A stretch of DNA of 64,000 nt from the human T2T-CHM13v2.0 reference genome, Homo sapiens, in NCBI RefSeq assembly GCF_009914755.1, contig NC_060932.1; one strand, 5' to 3'. Positions 2,825-52,677 of this stretch are shown here, one piece after another (within the stretch, counting starts at the first letter, position 1; each line of letters opens with the position of its first letter). The notes under the pieces are model-generated. The model searched no databases. It had not been told where the DNA came from and saw nothing but the letters and a program-made list of their open reading frames with translations. Position numbers and translations under genes: made by a program.

Positions 2825-5245
<2,421 letters not shown>

Positions 5246-45477: not shown

Positions 45478-46038
45478 TTTTTGACCCACATTATTGCATC
45501 AGTGCCCTTCTAACCAGGACCCATGAACATTAACATTCTTATCGCTTCCCCTTTGTCTTCCCTTCTTCCCAAGCCCAGTGCCTTTTTCTAGTTGAGGATT
45601 GTGATGGAGTCCTTGACTCCTCCACCTGCTCTTCAACATTTTCTTGCTGTCTTTCAGTTGATGAAAAGGCCCTAGGCATTGAGGAGGGAACAGAACAAGA
45701 ACAGGGATAGATACAGGCCGTCTGCTTGAGACAGTGCCACATCTCTTCCCTGAGGCAATGAAAGCAAAGAGGGAGAAAGAGGAGAAATTGATGGAGGTGA
45801 CATTAAGTCATACTTTCAAGATATTAAGCTACTTTACTCAGTATCACCATTACTTTTTTAGTTTTTGTTTATTGTTTATTGTTTATGTACCTTTTAACTC
45901 ATTAGTTCTCACTGGTCAACATTTTGGGAATGAAGATTCCCAGAAGTTACTTCTGCTGCTATTATCTTTTGTCTGTTTCTATTCTTTTTTGAGTGTCAAG
46001 CAGGGGCCCCTAAAAACTTGACTGTATTATTTTGGATA

Positions 46039-46152
46039 CATGTCCTTTGGAGGGACATGGATGAAGCTGGAAAGCATCATTCTCAGCAAACTAACACAGG
46101 AACAGAAAACCAAACACCTCATGTTCTTACTCATAAGTGGGAGCTGAACAAT
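46039..46152 (+). mobile_element. Isolated 114-bp L1PA fragment, an inverted copy of 47613-47726
   Basis: 2 mismatches to the reverse complement of 47613-47726 by manual alignment. No tail or TSD. Confidence 0.9.
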
Positions 46153-47284
46153 ACCAGCAGCCCTCTCTTCGACTCCATTATCCTGGGTTAGACAGGATTC
46201 ACTGGATGTGAGGGAAGTCACAACTCCTGAAATTTCTACATGAAAAAATAAATCCCTGACCATTAGAATGATGAGCCTTTTGAGTAACTAAACATCTTTC
46301 ACAATATGGCTATTTCAGCTTGTCTTATTTATTTAAGCCACAATAAGAAATTCTCTTAAAAAATAAAAATAAAAATCTGAACTCTTAAGAGTTAGTGCAT
46401 CTTTGCCTGAATATTGAACAGCTATAGACTCACAGAAAGCTTTAAGAAACTATTTTAGGGAACATATTGACACAGCAATCCTTAATTGAATGTTACCAAC
46501 TGCTTCATATCATATATTTAGAAAGAACCTGTTTATGTTGTTTTGCTACTCCAATGAATAAAGTCAGAATGGTTTAATCATCTTTTAAACATCAAATAGT
46601 CTTTATTTTAACAAATGTCTTTATTGGCCCAGGATTTGAAACCCTAGTCACTAGAGCAAGACAACACAGCCATTTTTATGCCAGCAAAAGAAGCAGCTAT
46701 GAGGCCTCACGGATAACAGAAAGAATTATCACACACCCAACTTACTGCCTGGCACAATCTATGTGATACTGAAACAGATCATTGAAAATCAAAACATGTA
46801 ACCTCTCCAATAGTTATTTCAGCTGTACATTGACAAATAGTTGGGTTGATTGTATTTTATTTCTGGCTAATAGATTTCAGATTTTAATTACTGACTGAGA
46901 CAACTGGATTAAAAAAATAATTTATGCCAGAGATGACTTGGAAAGGAAGGCTGACAAAAGAAAAGAGGATCATTTTCCAACCAATCTGGAAAAAAATGAC
47001 TAAAAACTCCGTAAATAATTCTAACGAAGGGCCTGTGGCAATAAGCTGCTTAACTTAACTGGAAAGGAAGAAACACAAAGCCCATGAATGAGGAAAAGGC
47101 ATCAATACTTTTAGATACATGGGGTTGAAAAAAATGAGTCCCATTTCACAGTCTCTTCAGTAAAATCTTAAATGATGGCTACAAACATATTATAGTAACC
47201 TGAAGCTAATAAAACTACTATCATATCACATTACAAATATGAGAAAATTAGTGTACAACATTTCATGTAATCAACAATTACATT

Positions 47285-48523
47285 TTTTTTTCGTGGAATC
47301 TATTCTGCAGGCAGGAAGCAGAGACTCTGTGACTCTGGAGAGTTTTGAGCAGGGTGGCACGAGGCATGCAAACATTTTCTTGGCTGTTTTTTTATTTTTA
47401 TTATTATTTTTTAATTATACTTTAAGCTCTGGGGTACATGTGCAGAACGTGAAGGTTTGTTACATAGGTATACATGTGCCATGGTGGTTTGCTGCACCCA
47501 TCAACCCATCACCTATATTAGGTATTTATCCTAATGCTATCCCTCCCCTAGCTCTCCACCCCCTGACAGGCCCCAGTGTGTGATATTCCCCTCGCTATGT
47601 CCATGTGTTCTCATTGTTCGGCTCCCACTTATGAGTAAGAACATGAGGTGTTTGGTTTTCTGTTCCTGTGTTAGTTTGCTGAGAATGATGGTTTCCAGCT
47701 TCATCCATGTCCCTCCAAAGGACATGAACTCATCCTTTTTTATGGCTGCATAGTATTTCATGGTGTATATGTGCCACATTTTCTTTATCCAATCTATCAT
47801 TGATGGACATTTAGGTTGGTTCCAAGTCTTTGCTATTGTGAATAGTGCTGCAATAAACATATGCATGCATGTGTCTTTATAGTATAATGATTTATAATCC
47901 TTCAGGTATATACCCAGTAATGGGATTGCTGGGTCAAATGGTATTTCTGGTTCTAGATCCTTGAGGAATCAGCACACTGTCTTCCACAATGGCTGAACTA
48001 ATTTACACTCCCACCAACAATGGAAAAGCTTTCCTATTTCTTCTCATCCTCTCCATCGTCTATTGTTTCCTGACTTTTTAATGATCGCCATTCTAACTGG
48101 CGTGAGATGGCATCTCATTGTGATTTTGATTTGCATTTCTCTAATGACCAGTGATGATCAGCTTTTTTTCATATGTTTGTTGGTCACATAAATGTCTTCT
48201 TTTGAGAAGTGTCTTTTCATATCCTTTGCACAACTTTTGATGGGGTTGTTTTTTTCTTGTAAATTTGTTTAAGTTCCTTGTAGATTCTGTATATTAGCCC
48301 TTTGTCAGATGGACAGATTGCAAAAATTTTCTCCCATTCTGTAGGTTGCTTGTTCACTCTGATGATAGTTTCTTTTGCTGTGCAGAAGCTCTTTAGTTTA
48401 ATTAGATCCTATTTATCAATTTTGGCTTTTGTTGCCATTGCTTTTGGTGTTTTAGTCATGAGGTCTTTGCCCATGCCTATGTCCTGAATGGTATTGCCTA
48501 GGTTTTTCTTCTAGGGCTTTTAT
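47285..48523 (-). mobile_element. 5'-truncated L1PA (7/8-like) with a 3' transduction
   Basis: Reverse L1PA 3' UTR/ORF2 end at 47413-48523, first tail 47387-47412, unique 47292-47386, second T-run. TSD aacaattacatt at 47273-47284 and 48524-48535. Confidence 0.93.
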
Positions 48524-50179
48524 AACAATTACATTCATATTTATGTTGAGAGGCACACAAAAATACCAGCAGCCCTGTTAGATTTGGGGCACTTTTCTTC
48601 CTTTCTTCTGCCCTCAAAACATTATGCAATATGGCTAAGTTGCTCACAGAAATATGAAAATATGAATTAACTGAAAAGACATATTGGTTTTAAGAGGAGC
48701 ACTTAGGTAAATCTCACAGAGCTCTGAAACCAAGTTGGCACTCAAGACGTGATTGCCACTTCCTCCATTCCCTAAAACTTGCATAACAGGGTTCCGTGGC
48801 TTCAGGAAACCTCCAGAGACAACAGCAGACTTCTCAAACTGCTGCATCATTAACACCCGTTTGACAACTTTGTCTTAATTAGTGTTTCAGAATAGCTGGA
48901 CTCTATAATGTGATGAAGCTTTAGGAATACCTTTACCAATTTATTCTGTTTCCATTCTCTTTTCTTGTATTCACATGGAGTAACATGTGAAAAAATATTT
49001 CTGGGTTTAATCAAGGTTAAGATAACTCTTTTAACAGGGATAAAATGAATATTCCAAGTGAGCGGAATCATGATGCCATAGTTTCATTGGCAGCCATTTT
49101 TCTTTAGCGGTATGTAAATATCGGAAGAGTCTGCAATCAGTGGTGTCTTAGATTGAATGAAACACTGCATTGTGGTAATGAGGAAACACAGGCATGTTTA
49201 GCAAGCTTTTTAGGTACTTTGGGCATCTTCAATTATTTTGGAACTACTGTACCCTCCTATTTTATTTAACATTATATACATTATTTAGGGGAAAGTCATT
49301 AACTCCATTAACAGGTAGTTTGTTAATGGATAGAGGTCTCAAAAACATAAAGAACAGTGAAATAATATCAAGACTAAAGATGGTTAAAAATTATCTCAAG
49401 AAAAACAGAAATCAGAGAGTTTTTATGACTTCTAATCATTTGGGAGAAATAATCAGTCTTTAAGGACAACTGTGGATATAAGAGTACCCAGGCAGGCAAC
49501 TACAGGGACAAGGGCTATCATTTTCATTATGTCCAAAGGAACAAAACCAGGAGAACAGAACATCTGCATATTGCCCCTCTCTTTCTTTACCTAATAGTAG
49601 TGAGTTAATAAACCCTCTCTGACCAGTGGCTACTGCTTAGTGGACTATATAATACAATTAACATATTTGCATTTTAATAAGATGTGGATTGAGCTCACAC
49701 GTTCTTTTGAAGACCAAAGAACCCAGACTTCAGAAAGCCGATAAAGGCAGATGATCATGTGACTTTTTTCCTGGATTTTTAGGGCCAGTCTTTCCCTGGA
49801 ATGAAGAAAGAGGTTTCCCCAGAGAGAATGAACATTTCCACGGCCAAGAATCCTGGGAAGTGATAAATTCTAGGGCAGGAAATAAAGACTCTATGGAGAA
49901 GTATGAGCTTGGAAATTGGCCAGGAGCTAGCTGGGCTGGAACTCTGTGGTCTGGAGACAACTGGAACATTTGGAGGAGGTGGGCAGGACACTGAATTGCT
50001 ACTGCCCATGTGAAGGCAAAGTACCCTCTTGGCGTGAGTCCTGGCCTGCGCAATTTTTCTGTGTTGTATTTTCCTTATGTAATAGTTTCAAGAGCTCCTA
50101 ATATAAGGTTCCTTTTTGGTGACATTGTTTTCTTCCCTCTTTCTTTTATGACATTTATTACTACAAGGAAAGGGAAAGA

Positions 50180-50696
50180 AGCAGGTACTAGATTCTGTTT
50201 ACGCATCACTCCAGATTTACGCACTTGCTTTGCTTTCTGACCTGTGAAGCCCCCAATAGAACTCACCCTCTTCCATAGATCATGGAGCCAGTTGTCTCCT
50301 GCCTTCACTGTGGCTACAGACCTAGAGGCTCAATGCAGCCAAATCCCCCCACATTCCTGTTGTGCTGAGGTTTGGGGGGACACCAGGACTTACTTGGCAC
50401 TCATGTTATAGTGAAAGCTCCATAGATCCAATTTTGACCTATAGGTTATGGAAGTGAGTGGACAGATGCTGCTTCCTTCCTTGCCCCTAGACAGAATGCT
50501 GGATATACAGTTTCTTCATTTATTCTCCCTAAAGATATCCCCAAAGGCCAAAGAATTTGCTTGCCATTAAGCTCAATAATATACTTCCTTACATTTTCTC
50601 TCCCTCTCTCCTGTTTTCTTGGCGTTGCGTTTCCCCAATCCAATATTGGCACATTAGTTTGGCCTCAGGCTCTGCTTTGTAGGAGATCTTAACTGA
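50180..50696 (+). mobile_element. Degraded ERVL-class LTR
   Basis: 3' end ctccctctctcctgttttc...ggcctcaggctctgctttgtaggaga resembles LTR16/41-group termini. The 5' boundary is uncertain. Confidence 0.45.
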
Positions 50697-50928
50697 TGCA
50701 ATAAACATACGCGTGCATGTGTCTTTATAGTATAATGATTTATAATCCTTTGGGTATATACCCAGTAATGGGATTGCTGGGTCAAATGGTATTTCTGGTT
50801 CTAGATCCTTGAGGAATGGCCACACTGTCTTCCACAATGGTTGAACTAATTTGCACTCCCACCAACAGTGCAAAAGCTTTCCTATTTCTTCACATCCTCT
50901 CCATCATCTATTGTTTCCTGACTTTTTA
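50697..50928 (-). mobile_element. Isolated 232-bp L1PA fragment, paralogous to 47849-48080
   Basis: Ungapped manual alignment gives 13 mismatches. No tail or TSD. Confidence 0.9.

Positions 50929-51330: not shown

Positions 51331-52677
<1,347 letters not shown>

What the first reader, a model, noticed from the sequence alone, without database searches (positions are those of the whole stretch)
47273..48535. L1PA carrying a 95-bp 3' transduction, bracketed by a 12-bp TSD
Seen: aacaattacatt occurs at 47273-47284 and 48524-48535. The left copy does not abut the L1 tail. It is followed by a T9 run, 95 bp of non-L1 sequence (47292-47386) and only then the L1's own tail (47387-47412). On the L1 sense strand the extra segment ends ...gAATAGAttccacg-A9, with a variant poly(A) hexamer just before the second tail. 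Established: L1 read-through of its weak poly(A) signal mobilises downstream flank (3' transduction). Inference: the 95 bp is a tag of the source locus of this old element, and repeat annotation would leave it labelled as unique DNA.
Basis: partly seen in the sequence, partly recalled or inferred. Interest (0 to 1): 0.78.

Follow-up and report, generated by a model that had tools for sequence, protein, structure and literature searches.

The report
L1 copy tagged by vanished parent
An old jumping-gene (L1) copy on human chromosome 8 carries 95 bases that match a spot 36 million bases away where no L1 sits today, so it is likely the offspring of a parent L1 that once sat there and was later lost from the population, which is a known and fairly common kind of event.

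Summary
The structure is real. An exact 12-bp target-site duplication, found only twice in the window, encloses a 5'-truncated 1.1-kb primate L1, its 26-nt tail, 95 bp of non-L1 DNA and a second short A-run. The 95 bp has one paralogue in the genome searches, at chr8:28,578,897-28,578,983 (6 substitutions in 87 columns plus an 8-bp indel). That paralogue runs on without a poly(A), so it is the donor. No siblings were found. The AATAGA hexamer is only 7 nt from the tail and reads AATAGC in the donor, so it is weak support. Best reading (0.78): 3' transduction from a source L1 that never fixed, a described class ('proxy' elements; donor-less transductions). Rivals are a repair patch or a template switch into the L1 tail. 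A separate templated patch copied from this L1 lies 1.1 kb away. This is an ordinary member of a known kind; interest is low.

The parts
47273..47284 (.). Target-site duplication, copy at the 3' (tail) end of the insertion
   Evidence: Exact match to 48524-48535; only two copies in the window
47285..47291 (-). Outer poly(A) remnant, A7 on the L1 sense strand (A9 with the two A that begin the TSD)
   Evidence: Absent from the donor, which continues with non-A sequence after the segment end
47292..47386 (-). 95-bp segment copied from G000:C8:28578897-28578983 (+); carries an 8-bp tandem-type insertion relative to the donor
   Evidence: E 5.7e-23, the only other match; 6 substitutions in 87 aligned columns
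47387..47412 (-). Inner A-rich tail of the L1 (26 nt, 22 A); its distal part may include a copy of the donor's A-rich tract (inferred)
   Evidence: local alignment to the donor extends through the tract at low complexity
47413..48523 (-). 5'-truncated primate L1 (end of ORF2 with stops and frameshifts, plus 3' UTR); the label L1PA7/8 is recalled, not tested against a consensus library
   Evidence: 90-92% identical to the 39 best-scoring other copies listed; 55 of 1,109 sites differ from the column majority of 29 relatives; translation
48524..48535 (.). Target-site duplication, copy at the 5' truncation point; abuts the L1 with no microhomology
   Evidence: Relatives continue upstream with L1 sequence where the window has the TSD

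Best explanation
This is one L1 insertion that carries 95 bases from chr8:28.58 Mb, likely because a full-length parent L1 once sat at the A-rich tract there, read through its own poly(A) signal, and was later lost from the population without becoming fixed. Shown: one TSD encloses L1, tail, segment and second A-run; the donor is unique in the searches, has no tail at the segment end, starts exactly behind an A-rich tract, and has no L1 upstream. Inferred: (1) an active L1 of roughly 30-40 million years ago inserted at the tract, whose bottom strand reads TTTT/AC, 5 of 6 to the endonuclease motif; (2) its transcript ran about 90 nt past the L1 end and was polyadenylated; (3) target-primed reverse transcription copied the outer tail, the segment, the inner tail and 1.1 kb of L1, then stopped; (4) the daughter fixed 36 Mb away while the parent allele drifted or was selected out, leaving the empty site.
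For: TSD exact and flush with both ends, null 10 of 8,572. Unique donor; it lacks the terminal A-run, so the A-run was added. The segment starts directly behind a tract with 16 A in 19; such positions are 0.26-0.41% of local DNA. The donor site scores 5 of 6 to TTTT/AA. Ages are compatible: segment vs donor 6 of 87 (95% CI 2.6-14.4%), L1 55 of 1,109 from the majority of its relatives, P=0.27 for 6 or fewer changes at the two-lineage rate. Three AATAAA lie 122, 206 and 215 nt before the segment end, all upstream of the A-tract: a transcript started in an L1 at the tract would not contain them, whereas one coming through the RPL5 pseudogene would have to skip all three. Precedent: 248 of 349 somatic transductions were under 100 bp, and truncated reference L1s tagged by a source absent from the reference are described as 'proxy elements' (PMC13009371, passages). 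In non-human primates full-length donors were not seen at source loci apart from one macaque region (PMC4862182, section 14).
Against: No L1 or L1 remnant at the donor: nothing in 2.2 kb upstream against 29 L1 loci; the nearest 3' piece is 7,955 bp away, on the opposite strand and 85% identical. No sibling daughters. No poly(A) hexamer of the 18 tested lies 10-30 nt before the end in donor or copy, whereas 274 of 349 modern transductions had one. The C interruptions of the donor tract are not seen in the copy's inner tail, which has T interruptions. The insertion site itself matches the endonuclease motif at only 3 of 6. Two other apparently templated pieces lie within 2.2 kb of the insertion, so patch-type repair has acted here.
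Confidence: 0.78

Rival explanations
1. The L1 inserted first with a long poly(A) tail. A later break inside the tail was repaired by copying about 90 bases from chr8:28.58 Mb, primed by pairing between the tail and the donor's A-rich tract. This splits one tail into two, and no source L1 ever existed at the donor.
For: It explains at once the missing donor L1, the start at an A-tract, the lack of a well-placed poly(A) signal and the short outer tail. A patch of inverted L1 sequence plus flank lies at 46039-46164, and a probable second local copy at 50694-50928. Patches from distant sites are described as class 2 templated insertions (PMC5110952, passages).
Against: No A microhomology at the segment's 3' junction. 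The segment's divergence from the donor fits the age of the L1 and does not require a later date. The neighbouring patches have templates within about 3 kb, not 36 Mb. Transductions are common (23% of somatic L1 insertions); that distant patches landing in a tail are far rarer is my judgement, not a measured rate.
Confidence: 0.09
2. An L1-independent polyadenylated RNA from the donor region was reverse-transcribed first, and the enzyme then switched onto the poly(A) tail of an L1 RNA at the A-tract. A variant: such an RNA inserted in trans into the tail of the resident L1, with an all-A and hence invisible duplication.
For: Same anatomy, and no donor L1 needed. The donor lies 93 bp behind a same-strand RPL5 pseudogene of similar age (67 of 1,019 sites from the parent exons, against 55 of 1,109 for the L1, P=0.11). 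Template switching between L1 and other RNAs is documented (PMC13174262, passages), as is trans insertion of polyadenylated intergenic RNA.
Against: Such an RNA would have to skip three upstream AATAAA and end at a site without a well-placed signal. The chimeras in the passages seen have the foreign RNA at the 5' side of the L1, not the 3' side. No Rfam family overlaps the segment at E up to 1. No transcript data were available.
Confidence: 0.09
3. The source L1 did fix at the donor and was later removed exactly by recombination between its two TSD copies.
For: It would leave the same clean A-rich site.
Against: Precise deletions are very rare: 0.003% in toothed whales, stated to be slightly higher than in primates (PMC10531181, abstract and passages; SINE data).
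Confidence: 0.03
4. The 12-bp repeat is chance; the 95 bp was already here and the L1 landed beside it.
For: The target site is a poor endonuclease match, 3 of 6.
Against: The repeat is exact, unique and flush with the L1 5' end (null 10 of 8,572), and no alternative TSD abuts the L1 tail. The segment begins exactly at the tail and ends exactly at an added A-run.
Confidence: 0.01

Closest known systems
Partnered L1 3' transduction (as described in PMC13009371 and PMC9311842)
   Same: TSD, 5'-truncated L1, tail, short unique segment, second tail; donor elsewhere in the genome in the same sense; length under 100 bp is the commonest class (248 of 349).
   Different: No L1 at the donor, and no poly(A) hexamer 10-30 nt before the end. 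The event is tens of millions of years old rather than polymorphic or somatic.
'Proxy elements' (PMC13009371) and donor-less germline transductions (PMC4862182)
   Same: A truncated reference L1 carries a tag whose source L1 is absent from the reference.
   Different: In the proxy cases the source is a polymorphic L1 that still produces insertions. Here it is inferred to be long gone and has not been seen in any genome.
Templated sequence insertions, class 1 and class 2 (PMC5110952)
   Same: Copy of a distant unique sequence, donor intact.
   Different: Here the copy sits between an L1 tail and an A-run inside the L1's TSD; it has no TSD of its own that can be seen.
L1 chimeras by template switch or ligation (PMC13174262)
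   Same: L1 and non-L1 sequence in one orientation under one TSD.
   Different: The catalogued partners lie 5' of the L1 and are known RNAs or exons; this segment is 3' and matches no Rfam family.

Membership tests
L1 3' transduction | One TSD encloses L1 and extra segment | tested here: met
   12-bp exact, unique in window, flush with both ends; null 10 of 8,572
L1 3' transduction | Order L1, A-tail, unique segment, second A-tail | tested here: met
   outer tail only A7-A9
L1 3' transduction | Segment has a donor elsewhere that lacks the terminal A-run | tested here: met
   G000:C8:28578897-28578983
L1 3' transduction | Source L1 directly upstream of the donor | tested here: not met
   None in this genome. 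Absence from a reference is common in validated cases, so this lowers proof, not likelihood, by much.
L1 3' transduction | Poly(A) signal 10-30 nt before the second tail (usual, not universal: 274 of 349) | tested here: not met
   AATAGA ends 7 nt before; donor has AATAGC; none of 18 hexamers in range
L1 3' transduction | Endonuclease-type insertion site | tested here: inconclusive
   Target 3 of 6 to TTTT/AA, possibly decayed; donor tract 5 of 6
L1 3' transduction | Empty orthologous site lacks both L1 and segment | not testable with these tools
   No other primate genome is held (header: no relatives)
L1PA7/L1PA8 subfamily | Best match to the subfamily 3' consensus | not testable with these tools
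   No repeat consensus library. Divergence of 5.0% from the majority of 29 relatives fits the recalled range; ages of about 30 and 40 Myr from bioRxiv 10.1101/2021.04.06.438727 (passages)
Class 2 templated insertion (repair patch) | No TSD or poly(A) of its own; microhomology or small deletions at junctions | tested here: inconclusive
   A-tract homology at the 5' junction, none at the 3' junction; an A-run follows, which could be the split L1 tail

The most novel reading that the evidence does not exclude
The 95 bp is not a transduction at all but was captured into the L1's poly(A) tail from 36 Mb away by A-tract pairing (repair patch or template switch). With the two neighbouring pieces copied from this same L1, the locus would record repeated templated repair over tens of millions of years, and some fraction of old 'donor-less transductions' would be misread captures.
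Probability: 0.15. Interest if true: 0.45.

Novelty: new member of a known kind. Interest (0 to 1): 0.22.

Why it matters
Modestly. The tag marks where an active L1 likely sat in an ancestral primate population and then vanished, which no present-day repeat annotation of this genome can show. Pipelines that need an L1 beside the donor would probably miss it (inferred). It gives a one-look test in primate alignments: is the chr8:28.58 Mb tract occupied by an L1 in any lineage? No functional effect is indicated: no gene is annotated in the window.

Tried and rejected
Siblings: a search with the segment gave 2 matches from 2 candidates. A search with 691 bp of donor flank gave 40 matches; only the donor and this copy covered the segment, and the other 38 hit a downstream repeat. 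A 26-nt pattern with up to 3 mismatches gave 3 matches against 0 for the reversed control; the third (chr3) does not extend. None of 29 L1 relatives examined carries the segment (best hit 14 nt). These searches skip common words and score only top candidates, so diverged siblings are not excluded. Source L1 displaced by the RPL5 pseudogene: rejected, because the pseudogene has its own 9-bp TSD and no L1 lies just upstream. A-tract as the tail of another retroposed element: no upstream direct repeat of 10 bp or more covering the segment start within 9.4 kb. Segment as a small RNA: none of 7 Rfam matches overlaps it. 235-bp piece as a mere subfamily relative: weakened, since none of 10 top genome hits tested shares four of the variants it shares with this L1. 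Papers sought but not held: Szak 2003, the journal version of Hoyt 2022 and three others. Earlier scan findings were not open.

Full report
Observation. The 12-mer at 47273-47284 and 48524-48535 is identical and occurs only there in the window on either strand. Of 8,572 sampled positions, 10 gave an exact match of 12 or more bases in the same geometry. The best alternative TSD next to the L1's own tail had 3-10 mismatches over 7-20 bases. On the minus strand the order is TSD, 1,111 bp of 5'-truncated L1 (48523-47413), a 26-nt tail with 22 A, 95 bp of other DNA, A7, TSD. The L1 is 90-92% identical to the 39 other copies listed from 40 scored of 16,654 candidates. Against 29 of these it differs from the column majority at 55 of 1,109 sites, and its 5' end meets the TSD without microhomology. 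The subfamily label L1PA7/8 is recalled and was not tested against a consensus library.

The donor. A genome search with the 95 bp gave two matches from two candidates: itself and G000:C8:28578897-28578983 (+), E 5.7e-23, 36.4 Mb away on the same chromosome. The two differ by 6 substitutions in 87 columns and an 8-bp indel that looks like a tandem duplication in the window copy. The distant copy continues into ordinary sequence where the window copy has its A-run, so it is the donor and the A-run was added. The divergence (95% CI 2.6-14.4%) is compatible with two lineages each as old as the L1 (P=0.27).

No L1 lies 5' of the donor. The upstream 2.2 kb gave no hit against 29 L1 loci. The nearest L1 3' piece is 7,955 bp away, on the other strand and 85% identical. 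Instead the order is: an RPL5 processed pseudogene (Pfam Ribosomal_L5e, E 1.8e-54; own 9-bp TSD; 67 of 1,019 sites different from exons on chromosome 1), 67 bp of apparently single-copy DNA, a tract with 16 A in 19, then the segment. Positions preceded by such a tract are 0.26-0.41% of local DNA, so the start point is unlikely to be chance. The tract's bottom strand matches the L1 endonuclease motif at 5 of 6 positions, while the window's own target site matches at only 3 of 6. An opioid-neuropeptide exon lies 38 kb downstream on the same strand (the gene name PNOC is recalled). No siblings were found, within the limits of a search that skips common words.

The poly(A) signal. AATAGA ends 7 nt before the outer tail, and the donor reads AATAGC. 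None of 18 hexamers lies 10-30 nt before the end in either copy. In a modern set, 274 of 349 transductions had a signal in that range, so 75 did not (PMC13009371, passages). Three AATAAA lie 122-215 nt upstream in the donor, all before the A-tract. They argue against a transcript coming through the pseudogene and are irrelevant to one starting in an L1 inserted at the tract.

Mechanism. The best reading (0.78) is a 3' transduction from a full-length L1 that sat at the A-tract about 30-40 million years ago (subfamily ages from bioRxiv 10.1101/2021.04.06.438727, passages) and never fixed. The single TSD, the donor, the added A-run and the empty A-rich site are shown. The parent L1, the read-through and the loss are inferred. 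There is precedent. Truncated reference L1s tagged by a source absent from the reference are called proxy elements, and 248 of 349 tags were under 100 bp. In validated non-human primate transductions, full-length donors were not seen at source loci apart from one macaque region (PMC4862182, section 14 read). Rivals with the same anatomy: a repair patch primed in the L1 tail (0.09); a template switch or trans insertion of a donor-region RNA (0.09; PMC13174262 and PMC5110952, passages); precise deletion of a fixed source (0.03; PMC10531181, abstract and passages); chance (0.01). Only other primate genomes can separate these, and none is held.

Neighbouring pieces. 46039-46152 is an inverted copy of 47613-47726, 112 of 114 identical. 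It shares 4 of the 5 sites where this L1 differs from the majority, while 29 relatives are 89.5-94.7% identical over the same span. This L1 is its best other match among 40 scored of 2,320 candidates, with the next at 97%. It runs, through a 3-nt overlap, into a 15-mer found again only at 48562-48576 in this L1's right flank; a 12-mer recurs this close in 120 of 5,025 trials. It has no TSD, which fits a locally templated repair patch, probably younger than the L1 (P=0.012 for 2 or fewer changes at 7%). 50694-50928 is a same-strand copy of 47846-48080, 94% identical, sharing 6 of 16 variant sites. Four of these are absent from all 10 top hits tested, but other loci match it as well or better overall, so a local origin is likely, not shown. 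These pieces lie outside the TSD and raise the patch rival only slightly.

Known or new. The kind is well known. The T2T survey reported 183 top-confidence L1 3' transductions among 971,811 L1s and 15 transduced loci on chromosome 8 (bioRxiv 10.1101/2021.07.12.451456, passages). Its table of events and Szak et al. 2003 could not be seen and may list this locus. My searches were by topic; only aimed at the donor, by a recalled pseudogene name, and gave one unrelated paper (listing only). In the supplements of PMC13174262, RPL5 and PNOC had no hits and I saw only the first two chr8 places in each of three files. PMC9311842 was seen as passages. So I do not claim the locus is unreported. Verdict: real, a new member of a known kind, interest 0.22.

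Noticed in passing
window 46039-46164: Composite insert without TSD: 114 bp inverted copy of this L1's 47613-47726 (112 of 114 identical, shares 4 of 5 variant sites) joined by a 3-nt overlap to a 15-mer from the L1's right flank (48562-48576). Looks like a locally templated repair patch younger than the L1; not in the hub's list of masked stretches. An 11-mer just left of it (46026-46036) recurs at 49232-49242 and may be a third piece or chance.
   Followed up: partly
window 50694-50928: Internal 235-bp L1 piece without tail or TSD, same strand as the focal L1, 94% identical to 47846-48080 and sharing 6 of 16 variant sites; it keeps CpGs that the focal L1 has lost. Likely an older local copy.
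   Followed up: partly
window 4136-5233: Plus-strand L1 of similar age, 91% identical to the focal L1, sharing 13 of 54 variant sites against 2-7 for each of 29 relatives; several of the shared sites are common among relatives, so this may be a sub-lineage effect.
   Followed up: partly
L002:378-1414 (G000:C8:28577774-28578810): Near full-length RPL5 processed pseudogene with stops and frameshifts, A-tail and a 9-bp TSD, 6.6% from the parent exons; ends 93 bp before the donor segment.
   Followed up: yes
L002 about 2041-2200 and 2480-2540: Inverted arms of an old repeat flank an Alu-type element downstream of the donor; they give sub-threshold hairpin matches in Rfam and many 66-85% genome hits.
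   Followed up: no
window 51630-52567: Long purine-rich simple-repeat field (AAAG, AAGG, AAAGG units) around Alu-type pieces.
   Followed up: no
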